64,000 bases of DNA from a virus (taxonomy: Duplodnaviria; Heunggongvirae; Uroviricota; Caudoviricetes). A program made the translations under genes and the position numbers. The DNA lies in the IMG/VR virus record IMGVR_UViG_3300023371_000069; one strand, given 5' to 3'. Numbering within the stretch: the stretch's first letter is position 1; each line of letters opens with the position of its first letter. The notes beneath the pieces are model-generated. The model had not been told where the DNA came from. It did no database searches and saw nothing but the letters and a program-made list of their open reading frames with translations. Shown one piece after another: positions 3,946 to 12,438 of the stretch.

Positions 3946-4536
3946 ATGAATTATATGAAAGTTCTTATTGTCGTAGATATGCAGAAGGATTTCGTTGATG
4001 GTTCCCTGGGCACCAAGGAGGCGCAGGCTATCGTTCCGCTGGTCGCAGAGACCATTGAGCAGATGGCAGCTCCCGATACTGTGGTTATCTTCACCAAGGA
4101 TACTCATCCCGAAAATTACATGGATACCCTGGAGGGTAAAAATCTGCCGGTTCGTCATTGCATCAAGGGCACTGCCGGTCATTCCATTGTTGATGAAGTG
4201 TTCAAGGCTTACATCAATGTTATCGACACCTATGCCGACGCTTATGAGGTCTACCCCATGACCGACATTAACCCTATCAAGGTTGAAAAGCCTACTTTTG
4301 GCTCTGTCGAACTGCAGAACATTTTGTTCGATATCAATGAGCGTCTGGGTGTTGAAGAGGTTACTCTGATGGGTCTGTGTACCGGAATCTGTGTTATGTC
4401 CAATGCCATTCTGGCTAAGGCTACGCTGCCCGAGGTTCCTGTGAATGTGATTGCTGATTGCTGCGCCTGTGTTACCCCCGAGAGCCACAAGACTGCTCTG
4501 GAGGCGATGAAGCTGTGCCAGGTCAACATCATCTAA
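3946..4536 (+). CDS. pncA: nicotinamidase (isochorismatase-fold, PncA-like)
   Basis: VVDMQKDF, LPVRHCIKGTAGHSI (cf. PncA WPPHCVSGTPG) and the catalytic Cys in GLCTGICV. Confidence 0.75.
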   Translation: MNYMKVLIVVDMQKDFVDGSLGTKEAQAIVPLVAETIEQMAAPDTVVIFTKDTHPENYMDTLEGKNLPVRHCIKGTAGHSIVDEVFKAYINVIDTYADAYEVYPMTDINPIKVEKPTFGSVELQNILFDINERLGVEEVTLMGLCTGICVMSNAILAKATLPEVPVNVIADCCACVTPESHKTALEAMKLCQVNII

Positions 4537-4559
4537 ACTCTTTGCGAGAAAGCTGCTTA

Positions 4560-4754
4560 ATGTCGCGTGAACAGCTTTCAGAATTGAAAGAAGAAGATTT
4601 GCCATATTGTCCTTCAGCTTTTCTATACTGCGAGGGCAATTTCAAAAGATATAAAGCATATATCAAATTACGAGCTTTCCGAGTATTCGGTTGGAATGGA
4701 AGTGCCGATTTAGAACTCGGAATGGGAGAAACATGGAGGAAAATGTATGATTAA
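4560..4754 (+). CDS. small hypothetical ORF (uncertain)
   Basis: 65-aa ORF filling the pncA-prs gap; no RBS evident. Confidence 0.15.
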   Translation: MSREQLSELKEEDLPYCPSAFLYCEGNFKRYKAYIKLRAFRVFGWNGSADLELGMGETWRKMYD

Positions 4755-5574
4755 AGTAGGTAATGTCGAAATTAAGCAGGGTCAGTTCCCCGATGGCACT
4801 CTGTTGATGAAGTTTGACCCCAATGGGGATGAATTTGACACTCGCGGTAATATTCTGGTCGAGTGGTATTATGAAAATGATGCAGAGCTTTTCTCTTTGA
4901 TTTGCGTAAAGCGCCATCTGGACCGCGTCTATTCTTACAGCGATGTTGTTCTGGAAATGCCTTACATCCCCCATGCCCGCATGGACCGAGTGAAGTCTGA
5001 TGAAGATGTTTTCACTCTCAAGTATTTCTGCGAAGTTATCAACTCTCTGAATTTCAAGGTTGTTCATGTGCGTGACGCACATAGCAACGTAAGCCTGGCC
5101 CTTCTGAACAATGTAGAAGAAATGCCCATTACTAATTATGTTCTGGATGCAATTTTTGAGGCTCAGGCTGATGTACTCTTCTTCCCCGATGAAGGTGCTA
5201 TGAAGCGTTATTCTGGTGGGTTTGATATTCCTTACGCTTTTGGAATGAAAAAGCGAGATTGGAAGACCGGTCAGATTCAGGGCCTGGATATTATCAACGC
5301 CGAAGCAGTTAAGGATAAGAATGTTCTTATCGTTGACGATATCTGTTCTCGTGGTGGTACTTTCTACCATTCTGCTAAAGCTCTTAAGGCTGCTGGCGCC
5401 AAGAGCGTAAGTCTGTATGTCACCCATTGCGAAAAGACTATTATTTTGGGTGAAATGGCCAGCACTGATGGTCTTGTTGACCATGTCTATACCACTAAGT
5501 CCATTTTCCCCGAAGAGTTATTCAACGAAGGTTATGACCCTTACTGGAAGGAATGGATTACTGTATATCATTAA
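4747..5574 (+). CDS. prs: ribose-phosphate pyrophosphokinase (PRPP synthetase)-like
   Basis: FPDGT, MPYIPHARMDR (cf. Prs IPYFGYARQDR) and the PRTase motif VLIVDDICSRGGT. Confidence 0.7.
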   Translation: MIKVGNVEIKQGQFPDGTLLMKFDPNGDEFDTRGNILVEWYYENDAELFSLICVKRHLDRVYSYSDVVLEMPYIPHARMDRVKSDEDVFTLKYFCEVINSLNFKVVHVRDAHSNVSLALLNNVEEMPITNYVLDAIFEAQADVLFFPDEGAMKRYSGGFDIPYAFGMKKRDWKTGQIQGLDIINAEAVKDKNVLIVDDICSRGGTFYHSAKALKAAGAKSVSLYVTHCEKTIILGEMASTDGLVDHVYTTKSIFPEELFNEGYDPYWKEWITVYH

Positions 5575-5592
5575 AGAAAGGAGTAGACTCCA

Positions 5593-6111
5593 ATGAATAA
5601 GTATGAGTCTATTAAGGCAGATATGACAACTGCCTTGAAAAACGGCGATAAGCTGAGACGTTTGACTCTGGCTGATATGGTCGCCACAATCGACAAAGCT
5701 GCTACCTCTGGTAAAAAGAGAGTAGAAATCACAGATGCTTTTGTCGATGAAGTGATGTTGAAGTATAAGAAGACTGTCCAAGAGATGGTCGATACCTGTC
5801 CCGATGGGGCAACAGACCCCAAGAGAGATGCAGAATTGAAGGCTCGTAAGGCTGAATATCTGATGAAGCTCTCTATCGCTTTGGAGTATGCTCCTAAGGT
5901 TATCGACGACAAGGATGAAATTGTCAAGATGATTAACTACTGGGGAGTTTGTAACGCAGTTTCTATCTGCTCTGGTAATAAGGGTGTCATTATGAAGAAT
6001 GTGATGCCTTTCTTGAAGAAAGAGGGCTGCGATATGAAGGTTGCCCAAGAGGCACTGAAAGAAGCTATGGCTGCAGGCGATGCTTGCGTCAAGGCACAAA
6101 TGGGAGAGTAA
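5593..6111 (+). CDS. GatB/YqeY-domain protein
   Basis: YqeY-like helical protein pattern; AAAGGAG RBS. Confidence 0.5.
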   Translation: MNKYESIKADMTTALKNGDKLRRLTLADMVATIDKAATSGKKRVEITDAFVDEVMLKYKKTVQEMVDTCPDGATDPKRDAELKARKAEYLMKLSIALEYAPKVIDDKDEIVKMINYWGVCNAVSICSGNKGVIMKNVMPFLKKEGCDMKVAQEALKEAMAAGDACVKAQMGE

Positions 6112-6114
6112 GAT

Positions 6115-10946: not shown

Positions 10947-11473
10947 ATGATTTTAGTTAATCTTTTTGGTTCTCCTGGTACTGGTAAGTCTACTGGTGCC
11001 GCATATATCTTCAGCCAGCTCAAAATGCGTGGTATTAACGCAGAGCTGGTAACTGAGTTCGCTAAGGATAAGGTATGGGAAGAGAGTAAAGCTGTTTTCA
11101 ATAATCAGGCTTACATCTTTGGTAAGCAATATTTCCGCATCAGCCGTTGTGCTGATAAGTTGATGTTGTTATTACTGACTCTCCCTTACTTCTATCTTTA
11201 GTTTATAACCATGACCCCGTTTTGGGCGAAGATTTTAATAATGTCGTCCGCAAAGTAATGAACAGCTACAATTGTAAAAACTATTTCCTAGTTCGCACCA
11301 AAGAATATAATCCAGTAGGACGATTCCAGACTGAAGAAGAATCTGATAAGATTGCTGATGAAATTTTGGAATTGCTCAATAAGGAGCAACTCCCTTATAC
11401 AATTTCCACTGGCGATATAGTTGGTTATGATGCTATTGTTGACGACATTCTCCATATCTTAGAGGAAGCTTAA
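10947..11473 (+). pseudogene. P-loop kinase (nicotinamide riboside kinase / dNK-like) with an apparent -1 frameshift near 11160
   Basis: Frame 1 gives GSPGTGKST...RISRCADK then stops at TAG 11199-11201. Another frame continues with VDVVITDSPLLLSLVYNHD... to 11473. No slippery heptamer seen. Confidence 0.4.
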
Positions 11474-11487
11474 TGCTTCCTCTTTGA
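11463..11487 (+). terminator. rho-independent terminator
   Basis: gaggaagc-ttaat-gcttcctc followed by TTTG. Confidence 0.6.
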
Positions 11488-11512
11488 TTTTTATTAAAAA
11501 ATATGTTATAAT
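11484..11512 (+). promoter_or_regulatory. sigma-70-like promoter of the repeated family
   Basis: ttgatttttattaaaaaatatgttataat. Confidence 0.65.
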
Positions 11513-11545
11513 ATATATATAAAGTTAAGAAAGGAATTGATATAA

Positions 11546-11863
11546 ATGACTGTGAATATTGATGCTCCTATCATTGTAGCTTTTACAGATAAAATTCGAG
11601 ACCGTGTCGTAGCAGACCCTTATATTTATTTCACAGATGAATTTACCGGTGAGGGTTTAGTTGCTGTATATGGTTGTCCCAATATTAAAGATTTTTTTGC
11701 TTTAATAGAGCATTTAATTAAATACCCCGATGGTATGTGGTATTGGGTGTTGCATGAGGGAAAATGTATCTGTTCTGGGGCTTGTGACCCTGGTGATATG
11801 GAAATTTTTGAAGACTATTTCGGTATCACTCAAGAAGAAGCAAAAGATTTAGTGATTAAGTGA
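11546..11863 (+). CDS. hypothetical protein
   Basis: ORF with AAAGGAA RBS. Confidence 0.4.
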   Translation: MTVNIDAPIIVAFTDKIRDRVVADPYIYFTDEFTGEGLVAVYGCPNIKDFFALIEHLIKYPDGMWYWVLHEGKCICSGACDPGDMEIFEDYFGITQEEAKDLVIK

Positions 11864-11874
11864 GGAGAATTATT

Positions 11875-12438
11875 ATGACAGGTGTTATTTTATTTAGAGC
11901 ACAGCCTTTTCATAGAGGACATTTAAATATGGTTCAAAAGGCTTATGAAGATTGCGCCGCAAATAATTGCGACCTTTATATCTTCGTTGGCTCTGCCGAT
12001 AAGAGCGGCACTGTCCGCAATCCTCTACCCATTGATTTTCGTATCATGCTTTTGGAAGGCTCTCTTCACGAACATTTTACAACAGAACAAATGAAATATA
12101 TTCATATTTTTCCTTTAGCTGATATGACTGATGAAGCTGACAATAGCCACGCATGGGGCCGATATCTTTATATCAAGATGTTTAGTAAAACCAAAGATTC
12201 TGATATGACTATCTATTACAGTGATGACCCCCGTATTATGCTCGGTTGGTTTGCCCAAGATGAAAGATGGTTACTTCGATTTAAATTTCTTGATAGATTC
12301 GAAGGTATTAGTGCAACATTGGTTCGCCAGGCTTTTCAGATGCCTAATAGCGACCCGATGATTGAAAAACTTGTTCCTCGATATGTTTATAATTATCGAG
12401 AAGAAATTAGAAACTATTTAAGCGAGGCGAAAGGTTGA
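11875..12438 (+). CDS. nicotinamide-nucleotide adenylyltransferase (NMNAT, NadM/NadR-type)
   Basis: VILFRAQPFHRGH (HxGH-type nucleotidyltransferase motif as in NadR/NadM GRFQPFHKGH); GAGGAG RBS before the ATG at 11875. Confidence 0.7.
   Translation: MTGVILFRAQPFHRGHLNMVQKAYEDCAANNCDLYIFVGSADKSGTVRNPLPIDFRIMLLEGSLHEHFTTEQMKYIHIFPLADMTDEADNSHAWGRYLYIKMFSKTKDSDMTIYYSDDPRIMLGWFAQDERWLLRFKFLDRFEGISATLVRQAFQMPNSDPMIEKLVPRYVYNYREEIRNYLSEAKG

What the first reader, a model, noticed from the sequence alone, without database searches (positions are those of the whole stretch)
3946..12438. Unusually complete phage NAD+ salvage/biosynthesis island (PncA, Prs, NadV, NadE, NMNAT, NRK-like kinase)
Phage NadV+NMNAT pairs are known to rebuild NAD+ depleted by immune effectors. 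Here the set is extended to nicotinamidase, PRPP synthetase (supplying the PRPP co-substrate), NAD synthetase and a P-loop kinase, spread over three consecutive operons. That is a near-autonomous NAD+ supply. Downstream lie an NAD-dependent DNA ligase (28887) and a sirtuin (6115), both NAD consumers. It is a strong candidate counter-defence against NAD-depleting systems (TIR/SIR2-based Thoeris, DSR, etc.) and supports the phage's own NAD-dependent enzymes.
Basis: partly seen in the sequence, partly recalled or inferred. Interest (0 to 1): 0.8.

Follow-up and report, generated by a model that had tools for sequence, protein, structure and literature searches.

The report
Gut-phage NAD+ rebuilding island, nicotinate variant
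A large gut phage carries a real cluster of NAD+-making genes whose core is the known phage pathway that rebuilds NAD+ from ADP-ribose, but here it is always joined to a nicotinamidase and an NAD synthetase and its key enzyme has a remodelled base pocket, which points to an undescribed route through nicotinic acid.

Summary
The gene cluster is real. It lies in three terminator/promoter-bounded units at 3946-12438 of a large phage of gut Clostridia. Two central names are wrong. The "Prs" (4747-5574) belongs to the Adps clade (ADP-ribose pyrophosphokinase of NARP1). The "NadV" (7628-9103) lies on the Namat side of the Nampt family. The P-loop kinase is split by a 1-nt deletion found only in this sequence.

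New result: in this transferase the Asp that binds the nicotinamide amide (SPbetaL1 Namat D215, human NAMPT D219) is Ser, and three other pocket residues are changed. Across 64 sequence clusters of Adps-linked transferases the pattern is absolute:
- Asp/Glu type: 0 of 34 have PncA or NadE nearby.
- Ser/Ala type: 30 of 30 have PncA and 28 of 30 have NadE, usually as one compact operon.

I propose a deamidated NARP1:
- Nam to nicotinate (PncA).
- ADPR to ADPR-PP (Adps).
- Nicotinate + ADPR-PP to NaAD (the transferase).
- NaAD to NAD+ (NadE).

No paper I could search describes this. It is inference from sequence and gene linkage, not biochemistry.

The parts
3866..3920 (+). Terminator hairpin followed by a TTGATT-17-TATAAT promoter-like site; start of transcription unit 1.
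   Evidence: The same hairpin+promoter cassette recurs at 7289-7346 and 11461-11512; the promoter alone recurs at 13373-13401.
3946..4536 (+). PncA-like nicotinamidase (196 aa). Predicted step: nicotinamide to nicotinic acid.
   Evidence: PF00857 3.6e-24. The best PDB relatives are nicotinamidases, 1ilw at 2.9e-15. Asp11, metal ligands Asp52/His54/His71 and Cys149 align with P. horikoshii PncA. The catalytic Lys is only provisionally placed (K115). A homologue is present in 78 of the 80 closest related loci.
4747..5574 (+). Adps-clade Prs homologue (275 aa). Predicted step: ADP-ribose + ATP to ADPR-pyrophosphate.
   Evidence: 141 bits to SPbetaL1 Adps and 52 bits to E. coli Prs. It lacks the Prs N-terminal segment, and the Lys equivalent to Adps K162 is conserved. 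phrog_619 scores 255.8 bits. All Prs NCBIfam scores fall below cutoff.
5593..6111 (+). YqeY/GatB-like protein (172 aa), role unknown. An accessory gene, found in 6 of the 80 closest loci by tblastn.
   Evidence: PF09424 27 bits, at the cutoff.
6115..6888 (+). Sir2/CobB-type NAD+-dependent deacylase (257 aa). An accessory NAD+ consumer.
   Evidence: NF001752 253.7 bits, above its cutoff. The Zn-Cys4 site and catalytic His are visible in the sequence. Near the module in only 7 of 80 loci.
6885..7286 (+). Unknown 133-aa protein with a lipoprotein-like N-terminus (…SLIAC). Probably not part of the pathway.
   Evidence: no family hit.
7289..7346 (+). Terminator plus promoter-like cassette; start of transcription unit 2.
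7628..9103 (+). Namat-like ADPR-PP:pyridine-base transferase (491 aa) with a remodelled base pocket. Predicted step: nicotinic acid + ADPR-PP to NaAD.
   Evidence: 338 bits to the SPbetaL1 Namat structure 9w5x and 170 bits to human NAMPT. The catalytic core (F185, R188, H241 and the equivalents of R306/D308) is kept. The pocket changes are listed under the two motif parts below.
8249..8269 (+). Motif NKTSTIP in place of xGTDTIP. Lys209 replaces Gly (human NAMPT G217). Ser211 replaces the amide-binding Asp (SPbetaL1 D215, human D219).
   Evidence: (HMMER alignment).
8336..8353 (+). Motif VSTEHS. Ser238 replaces Ala242 (human A244), three residues before the catalytic His241.
8750..8818 (+). Adenine-clamp helix (SCH) with a 10-residue insertion: GVGAFCFH-ALFSPDNKFT-VLTRD. 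The Phe equivalent to F392 is kept; the Y396 position is Val.
   Evidence: Motif definition from PMC12774641.
9103..9609 (+). Macro-domain protein (168 aa), Adpp-like. Predicted step: ADPR-1''-phosphate (and possibly O-acyl-ADPR) to ADPR.
   Evidence: DarG macro region 2.2e-14. Poa1p 6lfq 1.1e-4 and BT1257 1.1e-6. phrog_335 4.3e-32. Its start overlaps the transferase stop. Present in 70 of 80 loci. NARP1-AP precedent: bioRxiv 10.64898/2026.01.28.702374.
9612..10418 (+). NH3-dependent NAD+ synthetase NadE (268 aa). Predicted step: NaAD + NH3 + ATP to NAD+.
   Evidence: PF02540 1e-50; TIGR00552 169.6 bits against a 63.65 cutoff. PDB 2e18 1.5e-32 and 3fiu 2.6e-28. Present in 72 of 80 loci.
10431..10946 (+). 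NADAR-domain protein (171 aa). Probably processes an ADP-ribose derivative; an accessory gene.
   Evidence: PF08719 1.8e-32. Present in 38 of 80 loci.
10947..11473 (+). P-loop kinase of the AAA_28 family, 175 aa when intact. Here it is split by a 1-nt deletion in GATAAAG at about 11157. Substrate unknown.
   Evidence: repaired protein, AAA_28 1e-10; intact 175-aa gene in two otherwise identical contigs. Nothing specific to nicotinamide-riboside kinases.
11461..11512 (+). Terminator plus promoter-like cassette; start of transcription unit 3.
11546..11863 (+). Unknown 105-aa protein, first gene of unit 3.
   Evidence: No family hit.
11875..12438 (+). Archaeal/NadM-type NMN (or NaMN) adenylyltransferase without a Nudix domain (187 aa from the ATG at 11875). 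An accessory gene.
   Evidence: TIGR01527 1.6e-13. M. jannaschii NMNAT 1f9a 1.2e-8. HxGH and SxTxxR motifs present. Present in 15 of 80 loci.
28887..30878 (+). NAD+-dependent DNA ligase (663 aa), a downstream NAD+ consumer in the replication module.
   Evidence: PF01653, PF03120 and BRCT domains.

Best explanation
The island is a phage NAD+ reconstitution module of the NARP1 family, extended and probably rewired. The whole scheme below is inferred; nothing has been shown enzymatically.

**Proposed steps**
- Host NADases split NAD+ into ADP-ribose and nicotinamide.
- The macro protein, and perhaps the NADAR protein, turn ADPR derivatives such as ADPR-1''-phosphate back into ADPR.
- Adps (4747-5574) pyrophosphorylates ADPR to ADPR-PP.
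- PncA (3946-4536) deamidates the released nicotinamide to nicotinic acid.
- The Namat-like transferase (7628-9103) joins nicotinic acid to ADPR-PP and gives nicotinic acid adenine dinucleotide (NaAD). Its pocket has lost the amide-binding Asp and gained Ser, Ser and Lys.
- NadE (9612-10418) amidates NaAD to NAD+.

**Accessory genes**
- The sirtuin is an NAD+ consumer in the same unit as PncA and Adps.
- The NMNAT and the P-loop kinase are additions of this phage lineage. They could finish NMN or NaMN made by side reactions or from ribosides.

**What rests on what**
- Shown by sequence: the family and clade assignments, the pocket substitutions, and the gene linkage.
- Inferred: every enzymatic step, above all the nicotinate specificity of the transferase.

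My probability that this is a NARP1-type reconstitution module is about 0.85. My probability that it runs through nicotinate and NaAD is about 0.55.
For: **Clade placement**
- Adps: 141 bits to verified SPbetaL1 Adps, 52 bits to E. coli Prs; the catalytic Lys is kept.
- Transferase: 338 bits to the SPbetaL1 Namat structure, 170 bits to human NAMPT, 146-189 bits to phage Nampt-clade proteins.
- A spread of the 2,041 matching phage records shows the same two score tiers.

**Pocket**
- SPbetaL1 D215, which hydrogen-bonds nicotinamide (PMC12774641), is Ser in the window and in all 80 closest relatives. It is Ala in the Phass-1 and MT835544 clades.
- D215A cuts Nam-dependent NAD+ synthesis about 8-fold in SPbetaL1 Namat.
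- Human NAMPT Asp219 defines substrate specificity, and D219S is listed as switching substrate affinity (PMC7096376; PMC4919578).
- The positions that best separate the two types are SPbetaL1 H187, G213, D215 and A242. By my own offset mapping from F189=F193 and H245=H247, these equal human H191, G217, D219 and A244. Three of the four are listed inhibitor-resistance sites.

**Linkage** (230 loci, 64 clusters at 90% identity)
- Asp/Glu type: 0 of 34 have PncA or NadE within 10 kb, even at E<10.
- Ser/Ala type: 30 of 30 have PncA and 28 of 30 have NadE. The two exceptions are truncated contigs.
- 177 loci have all four genes on one strand, with a median span of 4.85 kb and two gene orders.
- Nine more cultured-phage homologues are all H/G/D(E)/A.
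- The same operon is in Clostridia genomes, including two isolates.

**Macro domain.** A macro domain inside NARP1 operons is a proven ADPR-1''P phosphatase in Vibrio phage Gary.
Against: - No enzyme here has been assayed.
- The D219S claim comes from secondary citations. The exact kinetics of that mutant were not read.
- The Ser/Ala type could still use nicotinamide, only less well.
- The adenine clamp that defines Namat is altered in the window's clade: a 10-residue insertion, Val at the Y396 position, and Met at the R40 position. Use of ADPR-PP is therefore less certain here than in the Phass-1 clade, where the clamp is canonical.
- The second-best solved relative of this NadE is Francisella NadE (3fiu). 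From memory, that enzyme prefers NaMN, which would fit a mononucleotide route.
- No selective reason for the longer, ATP-costlier route is established.
- The Ser/Ala lineages are related, so the 64 clusters are not independent events. A crude NJ tree suggests two to three deep lineages.
Confidence: 0.55

Rival explanations
1. Prs makes PRPP, NadV makes NMN from nicotinamide, and NMNAT makes NAD+ (NARP2-like). PncA and NadE reinforce the host Preiss-Handler route, and the kinase phosphorylates nicotinamide riboside.
For: - Family-level HMM hits to Prs, Nampt, NMNAT, NadE and isochorismatase.
- An NMNAT is present in this window.
- Namat enzymes keep some PRPP-dependent NMN synthesis in vitro (PMC12774641).
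Against: - The Prs-like protein is in the Adps clade and below all Prs cutoffs.
- The transferase is on the Namat side.
- NMNAT is absent from most relatives, whereas Adps is present in all 80.
- The amide-binding Asp is missing.
- The kinase has no NRK-specific support.
Confidence: 0.08
2. Canonical NARP1-AP that uses nicotinamide directly. PncA and NadE are separate helpers. For example, PncA removes nicotinamide that inhibits sirtuins, or both push flux through the host's own PncB/NadD route. The pocket changes would be neutral or would tune affinity.
For: - NARP1 and NARP1-AP are proven pathways.
- PncA and a sirtuin share a transcription unit in this window.
- Gut jumbo phages with Preiss-Handler genes are reported (PMC11662467).
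Against: - The correlation between loss of the Asp and presence of PncA and NadE is perfect.
- PncA would destroy the substrate of a nicotinamide-using Namat encoded in the same operon.
- D215A lowers the Nam reaction 8-fold.
- The sirtuin is near the module in only 7 of 80 loci.
Confidence: 0.17
3. A mononucleotide Preiss-Handler route carried by the phage. The transferase acts as a Nampt-fold nicotinate phosphoribosyltransferase (nicotinic acid + PRPP to NaMN). NaMN is then adenylylated by the NMNAT or the host NadD and amidated by NadE, or it is amidated first by a Francisella-type NadE and then adenylylated.
For: - The pocket changes fit nicotinate use.
- The adenine clamp is altered in the window's clade.
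- NadE is close to Francisella NadE 3fiu.
- An NadM-type NMNAT is present in the window.
Against: - Adps is kept in every one of the Ser/Ala-type clusters (30 of 30), and there it has no role in this scheme.
- The Phass-1 clade combines the pocket changes with a canonical adenine clamp.
- NMNAT is missing from most loci.
Confidence: 0.15

Closest known systems
NARP1 (Adps + Namat), Osterman et al., bioRxiv 10.1101/2024.02.11.579819; Namat structures in PMC12774641
   Same: - An Adps-clade Prs homologue and a Namat-side Nampt homologue lie within a few genes of each other on a phage.
- The catalytic core residues and the Adps Lys are conserved.
- The expected role is to rebuild NAD+ from the products of defence NADases.
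   Different: - The nicotinamide-binding Asp215 is Ser, and Ala242, Gly213 and His187 are also replaced.
- The adenine-clamp motif carries a 10-residue insertion and lacks the Arg/Lys/Tyr of the clamp loop.
- The pair is always joined by PncA and NadE, which no described NARP1 has.
- In this window the two genes are separated by four other genes and lie in different transcription units.
NARP1-AP (Adps + macro-domain phosphatase Adpp + Namat), bioRxiv 10.64898/2026.01.28.702374
   Same: A macro-domain gene sits inside the module, directly after the transferase. It has weak similarity to Poa1p, the ADPR-1''-phosphate phosphatase.
   Different: - The gene order differs (Adps-Adpp-Namat in Vibrio phage Gary).
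- Similarity to Poa1p is weak (E = 1.1e-4, N-terminal part only).
- I did not compare it directly with the Gary protein.
NARP2 (Nampt + Nmnat, Vibrio phage KVP40)
   Same: A Nampt-family enzyme and an NMN adenylyltransferase are both encoded in this window.
   Different: - The transferase is not of the Nampt clade.
- The NMNAT lacks the Nudix domain and is absent from most relatives.
- Osterman et al. found no phage with both NARP1 and NARP2. This window has NARP1-type genes plus an NMNAT.
'NAD-jumbo phages' of animal guts, Li et al., Microbiome 2024 (PMC11662467)
   Same: Large gut phages with clustered NAD+ synthesis genes (pncB-nadD-nadE, nadR-nadM-pnuC, NAMPT), together with NAD+-dependent ligase and other consumers. 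The proposed role is counter-defence.
   Different: That work assigns genes by KEGG names to the standard salvage and Preiss-Handler routes. In the two Results sections I read it does not mention Adps or Namat, and it does not describe the PncA-Adps-transferase-NadE operon or the pocket change.
Bacterial Preiss-Handler salvage (PncA, PncB, NadD, NadE)
   Same: The first and last enzymes (PncA, NadE) and the deamidated logic (nicotinate in, amidation last) are the same.
   Different: The two middle enzymes, PncB and NadD, are not in the module. Adps plus the Namat-like transferase would replace them and reach NaAD in one coupling step from ADPR-PP.

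Membership tests
NARP1 | A Prs homologue of the Adps clade, distinct from cellular Prs. | tested here: met
   141 bits to SPbetaL1 Adps and 52 bits to E. coli Prs; the K162 equivalent is kept; phrog_619 scores 255.8 bits; scores are below Prs cutoffs.
NARP1 | A Namat-clade Nampt homologue within 10 genes of Adps. | tested here: met
   Five genes downstream of Adps. 338 bits to 9w5x (SPbetaL1 Namat), 170 bits to human NAMPT, 146-189 bits to phage Nampt-clade proteins.
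NARP1 | [quoted passage not shown] | tested here: not met
   The sequence is GAFCFH + a 10-residue insertion + VLTRD. The aromatic residue at position 3 is kept; the Y396 position is Val.
NARP1 | Clamp loop with Arg, Lys or Tyr as its third residue. | tested here: not met
   Met in the window and in all 80 closest relatives.
NARP1 | Nicotinamide pocket with Asp215 hydrogen-bonding the amide. | tested here: not met
   Ser211 in NKTSTIP. Also A242 to Ser, G213 to Lys and H187 to Ala.
NARP1 | ADPR to ADPR-PP, then NAD+ formation with nicotinamide. | not testable with these tools
   Needs enzyme assays.
NARP1-AP | A macro-domain ADPR-1''P phosphatase (Poa1p-like) encoded in the NARP1 operon. | tested here: inconclusive
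   A macro gene abuts the transferase and is present in 70 of 80 loci. Similarity to Poa1p is weak (6lfq 1.1e-4) and similarity to the DarG macro region is 2.2e-14. Activity is unknown.
NARP2 | A Nampt of the KVP40 clade that prefers PRPP. | tested here: not met
   The transferase groups with Adps-linked Namat proteins, not with the CfP1 or XacN1 Nampt. KVP40 itself was not fetched.
NARP2 | An Nmnat in the same phage. | tested here: met
   11875-12438 has archaeal/NadM-type NMNAT motifs and hits. It has no Nudix domain.
NARP3 | A PnuC transporter plus a bifunctional NadR-like enzyme. | tested here: not met
   None of the island proteins scanned hits PnuC. The NMNAT and the P-loop kinase are separate genes in different units. 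The rest of the window was only sampled.
Ribose-phosphate pyrophosphokinase (Prs) | Reaches the NCBIfam Prs cutoffs. | tested here: not met
   TIGR01251 83.6 bits against a 113 cutoff. All equivalog models are far below cutoff.
Nicotinamidase PncA | Asp-Lys-Cys triad and an Asp/His/His metal site. | tested here: inconclusive
   D11, D52/H54/H71 and C149 align with P. horikoshii PncA. The catalytic Lys did not align in HMMER, and K115 is my provisional placement. The NCBIfam equivalog score is below cutoff (40.9 against 174).
NH3-dependent NAD+ synthetase NadE | Reaches the TIGR00552 cutoff over the full length. | tested here: met
   169.6 bits against a 63.65 cutoff; PF02540 covers 2-240 of 242 positions.
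NAD-jumbo phage (PMC11662467) | Phage genome above 200 kb with a complete NAD+ synthesis route. | tested here: inconclusive
   Contigs carrying the identical transferase include four in the 0.2-1 Mb class. The closest IMG/VR contigs are 45-192 kb. The genome size of this phage is not known.

The most novel reading that the evidence does not exclude
A fourth kind of phage NAD+ reconstitution pathway, a 'deamidated NARP1'. It is a four-gene operon, PncA-Adps-transferase-NadE. Its Nampt-fold enzyme has evolved from a nicotinamide ADPR-transferase into a nicotinate ADPR-transferase that makes NaAD directly from ADPR-PP, a reaction not described for any enzyme. My scans found pattern matches for it in several hundred viral contigs, many from human-gut samples, and in prophages of cultured Lachnospiraceae and Ruminococcus. 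It is almost absent from phages deposited in GenBank.
Probability: 0.5. Interest if true: 0.8.

Novelty: new variant of a known kind. Interest (0 to 1): 0.7.

Why it matters
NAD+ depletion is a common end point of bacterial antiviral systems (Thoeris, DSR, SIR2-HerA, SEFIR, short Argonautes). The phage answers known so far are NARP1, NARP1-AP, NARP2 and NARP3.

If the proposed route is right, three things follow:
- It adds a new enzyme activity, nicotinate + ADPR-PP to NaAD.
- It gives a natural example of a base-specificity switch in the Nampt fold.
- It shows that the abundant large phages of gut Clostridia use a different solution from the phages of model hosts.

It also gives a simple sequence rule for annotation. 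Asp or Glu versus Ser or Ala in the GTDT motif, together with linked pncA and nadE, separates the two types. It corrects the routine mislabelling of these genes as prs and nadV.

If the proposal is wrong, the perfect linkage between the pocket change and PncA/NadE still needs an explanation.

Tried and rejected
- **Near-identical DNA.** Megablast of the island against 50,697 phage records found nothing. The phage is not in GenBank.
- **tRNAs.** None in the window.
- **My own early misreading.** I first took the Asp of ADFGFRG for the amide-binding Asp and nearly dismissed the nicotinate idea. Residue numbering against SPbetaL1 showed that D215 lies in GTDT, which is KTST here.
- **PDB entry 9ke8.** I suspected it was a phage Nampt control. 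It is not from any phage in the collection (best 58% to SPbetaL1 Namat), so I did not use it.
- **KVP40 Nampt.** Not fetched. T4-like CfP1 and XacN1 served as Nampt-clade references instead.
- **P-loop kinase.** No support for nicotinamide-riboside kinase beyond Pfam AAA_28. A look-up of the truncated 84-aa ORF found no other contig that carries it.
- **Structure prediction.** Not run. The tool returns no coordinates, so it could not examine the pocket. An alignment-based run would also have needed the expensive protein search.
- **Literature.** Searches combining NARP1 with nicotinamidase, NadE, NaAD or deamido-NAD listed no relevant paper. The four NARP1 papers and preprints I opened do not mention PncA, nicotinamidase or NadE. 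The library is incomplete, so absence is not proof.

Full report
**1. What is in the window**

Between 3946 and 12438 all long ORFs lie on the + strand. Profile searches give this map:

| Coordinates | Assignment |
|---|---|
| 3946-4536 | isochorismatase-family protein (PncA-like) |
| 4747-5574 | Prs-like phosphoribosyltransferase-fold protein |
| 5593-6111 | YqeY-like protein |
| 6115-6888 | Sir2/CobB deacylase |
| 6885-7286, 7375-7623 | two unknown ORFs |
| 7628-9103 | Nampt-family enzyme |
| 9103-9609 | macro domain |
| 9612-10418 | NadE |
| 10431-10946 | NADAR |
| 10947-11473 | P-loop AAA_28 protein |
| 11546-11863 | unknown ORF |
| 11875-12438 | archaeal-type NMNAT |

A pattern scan finds a strong hairpin followed at once by TTGATT-17-TATAAT at 3866-3920, 7289-7346 and 11461-11512. 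The same promoter match recurs at 13373-13401, without a listed hairpin.

The rest of the window carries these genes:
- a PIN-PhoH protein;
- a 777-aa multi-domain lysin;
- GyrB and GyrA;
- an NAD+-dependent ligase at 28887-30878;
- DnaB and RecJ;
- a Pol III alpha subunit that is 38% identical to SPbeta YorL;
- anaerobic NrdD.

The sequence has no near-identical match among 50,697 phage records. IMG/VR holds many relatives on contigs of up to 194 kb.

**2. The 'Prs' and the 'NadV' are Adps and a Namat-like enzyme**

Osterman et al. showed that a phage gene pair annotated Prs + Nampt does something else. It makes ADPR-pyrophosphate from ADPR (Adps) and joins it to nicotinamide to give NAD+ (Namat). 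Together these form NARP1.

- The window's Prs-like protein scores 141 bits against the purified and assayed SPbetaL1 Adps, and 52 bits against E. coli Prs. It lacks the Prs N-terminal segment and keeps the Lys equivalent to Adps K162. It is below every Prs cutoff in NCBIfam.
- The Nampt-family protein scores 338 bits against the crystal-structure sequence 9w5x. I confirmed that 9w5x is SPbetaL1 Namat. It scores 170 bits against human NAMPT and 146-189 bits against phage Nampt-clade proteins.
- A spread sample of the 2,041 phage records with a homologue shows the same two tiers.

The macro gene that abuts the transferase recalls NARP1-AP. In that pathway a Poa1p-like macro protein converts ADPR-1''-phosphate, the product of the aRES defence system, back to ADPR. 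Here the similarity to Poa1p is weak.

**3. What is conserved around it**

I fetched 80 loci around the closest IMG/VR relatives and searched them with the island's proteins:

| Gene | Loci with a hit (of 80) |
|---|---|
| Adps | 80 |
| transferase | 80 |
| PncA | 78 |
| NadE | 72 |
| macro | 70 |
| NADAR | 38 |
| NMNAT | 15 |
| Sir2 | 7 |

The usual layout is a compact operon, PncA-Adps-(NMNAT)-transferase-macro-(NADAR)-NadE. The window's version is a looser copy with extra genes inserted.

The uncultured gut phage Phass-1 and the faecal scaffold MT835544 carry the same set.

**4. The pocket change**

In SPbetaL1 Namat, nicotinamide is held by F189, R192, D215, A242, R306, D13' and Y15'. D215 makes the hydrogen bond to the amide, and D215A lowers NAD+ synthesis about 8-fold. 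The human equivalent, Asp219, is described as defining NAMPT substrate specificity, and D219S is listed as switching substrate affinity.

In the window the motif xGTDTIP reads NKTSTIP, so the Asp is Ser211. This is visible both in the HMMER pairwise alignment and in the multiple alignment. All 80 close relatives have Ser. The Phass-1 and MT835544 clades have Ala.

The alignment positions that best separate the two types cluster in the same pocket:
- H187 becomes Gly, Ala or Ser.
- G213 becomes Lys, Arg or Asn.
- D215 becomes Ser or Ala.
- A242 becomes Ser.

By my own offset mapping (F189=F193, H245=H247) these correspond to human H191, G217, D219 and A244. Three of these four are known inhibitor-resistance sites in the nicotinamide tunnel. 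The net change removes a negative charge and adds hydroxyls and, in many members, a positive charge. That is what recognition of a carboxylate would need.

**5. The correlation**

I added loci found with SPbetaL1 Namat, Phass-1 and MT835544 as queries. I built HMMs for each family and clustered the transferases at 90% identity. This gave 230 loci in 64 clusters.

| Residue at 215 / 242 | Clusters | With PncA | With NadE |
|---|---|---|---|
| Asp or Glu / Ala | 34 | 0 | 0 |
| Ser or Ala / Ser | 30 | 30 | 28 |

- The two clusters without NadE are represented by truncated contigs.
- The negatives hold even at E<10, and most of those loci have about 10 kb on each side.
- In 177 loci all four genes are on one strand within a median of 4.85 kb, in two different orders.
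- Nine further cultured-phage homologues all have His/Gly/Asp(Glu)/Ala. They come from Klebsiella, Staphylococcus, Gordonia, Mycobacterium, Brochothrix, Vibrio, ICP1, Pseudomonas and Bacteroides phages.
- NadE is rare in deposited phages: 45 of 50,697 records. The closest are uncultured faecal scaffolds and Phass-1. This may explain why surveys of complete phage genomes did not see the module.

A crude NJ tree places the Phass-1 clade apart from the window and MT835544 clades. The linkage therefore spans deep divergence, but the clusters are not independent events.

**6. Proposed mechanism**

PncA and NadE are the first and last enzymes of the deamidated salvage route. The middle enzymes, PncB and NadD, are missing from the module. 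Adps and a transferase with a carboxylate-friendly pocket sit in their place.

The simplest reading has four steps:
- nicotinamide to nicotinic acid (PncA);
- ADPR to ADPR-PP (Adps);
- nicotinic acid + ADPR-PP to NaAD (transferase);
- NaAD to NAD+ (NadE).

The macro and NADAR proteins would feed ADPR in from its derivatives. A PncA placed in the same operon as a nicotinamide-dependent Namat would otherwise destroy that enzyme's substrate.

Why a phage would take the longer route is not known. I can offer two guesses, and both are speculation:
- Converting membrane-permeant nicotinamide into charged nicotinate might trap the base in the cell.
- The ATP-driven amidation might pull a reversible coupling step forward.

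**7. Weak points**

- Nothing is assayed.
- The clamp that gives Namat its ADPR-PP preference is altered in the window's clade: a 10-residue insertion, Val at the Y396 position and Met at the R40 position. The Phass-1 clade keeps a canonical clamp together with the pocket change.
- NadE is fairly close to Francisella NadE, and an NMNAT is present here. A mononucleotide route therefore cannot be excluded.
- The D219S evidence is second-hand.

**8. Other points**

- **P-loop gene.** It is split by loss of one A in GATAAAG near 11157. Two other contigs with the identical NADAR gene have the intact 175-aa protein. The frameshift is therefore specific to this sequence.
- **Host.** The scan of bacterial genomes found the operon in Clostridia MAGs. 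It is also inside large scaffolds of two isolates, Ruminococcus sp. AM36-2AA and Lachnospiraceae bacterium A4. The hosts are therefore probably Clostridia, at least some relatives appear to be prophages, and cultured material exists.

**9. Comparison with the literature, and verdict**

The general idea is published. Large gut phages with NAD+ synthesis clusters and NAD+ consumers appear in PMC11662467. NARP1, NARP1-AP, NARP2 and NARP3 are described.

None of the NARP1 papers and preprints I opened mentions PncA, nicotinamidase or NadE. My combined literature searches listed no relevant paper.

I rate the finding as a new variant of a known kind.

Noticed in passing
window 1337-3853 and 15599-17107: An 838-aa protein with major-vault-protein shoulder and repeat domains (PF11978 2e-23, PF17795) lies on one side of the NAD island. 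A 502-aa SPFH/flotillin-like protein lies a few kilobases beyond the other side. Both are conserved in the closest relatives (L009-L012, L015; 48-81% identity). A vault-like protein in a phage is unusual, and its role is unknown.
   Followed up: partly
window 10947-11473 (deletion near 11157): A single-base deletion in GATAAAG splits the P-loop AAA_28 kinase into 84-aa and 83-aa ORFs. Two other contigs that are otherwise identical here (L234, L235) have the intact 175-aa gene. This is a sequence error or a strain-specific mutation.
   Followed up: yes
window 3866-3920, 7289-7346, 11461-11512, 13373-13401: A repeated cassette: a GC-rich hairpin terminator followed at once by TTGATT-17-TATAAT with an upstream TG. 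The last site matched as a promoter only. It looks like the phage's own promoter type for this early or middle region.
   Followed up: partly
window 22-594, 12608-13372, 13841-14386, 14383-14970: RNA-repair-like genes lie around the island: an RNA-ligase-like ORF, a Pnkp-like AAA_33 kinase (TIGR04075 4.3e-13) and two metallophosphoesterases. Several of them are syntenic in the closest relatives.
   Followed up: no
window 6885-7286: An unknown 133-aa protein with a lipoprotein-type signal (…CVSLIAC) is inserted between the sirtuin and the transferase unit. No homologue was detected in the related loci.
   Followed up: no
window 17999-55969: A bacterial-style replication module, all on the + strand: PIN-PhoH, GyrB, GyrA, LigA, DnaB, RecJ, Pol III alpha (38% to SPbeta YorL) and anaerobic NrdD. 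There is also a 777-aa lysin with M15 peptidase, tail-lysozyme, amidase_2 and SH3 domains. Coding strand and GC skew flip near 56 kb.
   Followed up: partly
L241 (QTYB01000001, Ruminococcus sp. AM36-2AA) and L250 (KE159538, Lachnospiraceae bacterium A4): The PncA-Adps-transferase-(NADAR)-NadE operon lies inside 499-kb and 792-kb scaffolds of cultured isolates. These are probably large prophages and would give experimental access to the module.
   Followed up: partly
L001 (Phage Phass-1, OQ749652) 11459-15897: This deposited gut phage (genetic code 15 clade) has PncA-Adps-transferase-ORF-NadE. The NadE gene is annotated only as a hypothetical protein. Its transferase has Ala at the Asp215 position but a canonical adenine clamp.
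   Followed up: yes
L005 (Escherichia phage LNA6) 1968-3749: The Felixounavirus Namat homologue is 593 aa. It has an insertion of about 90 residues relative to the other Namat proteins (alignment).
   Followed up: no
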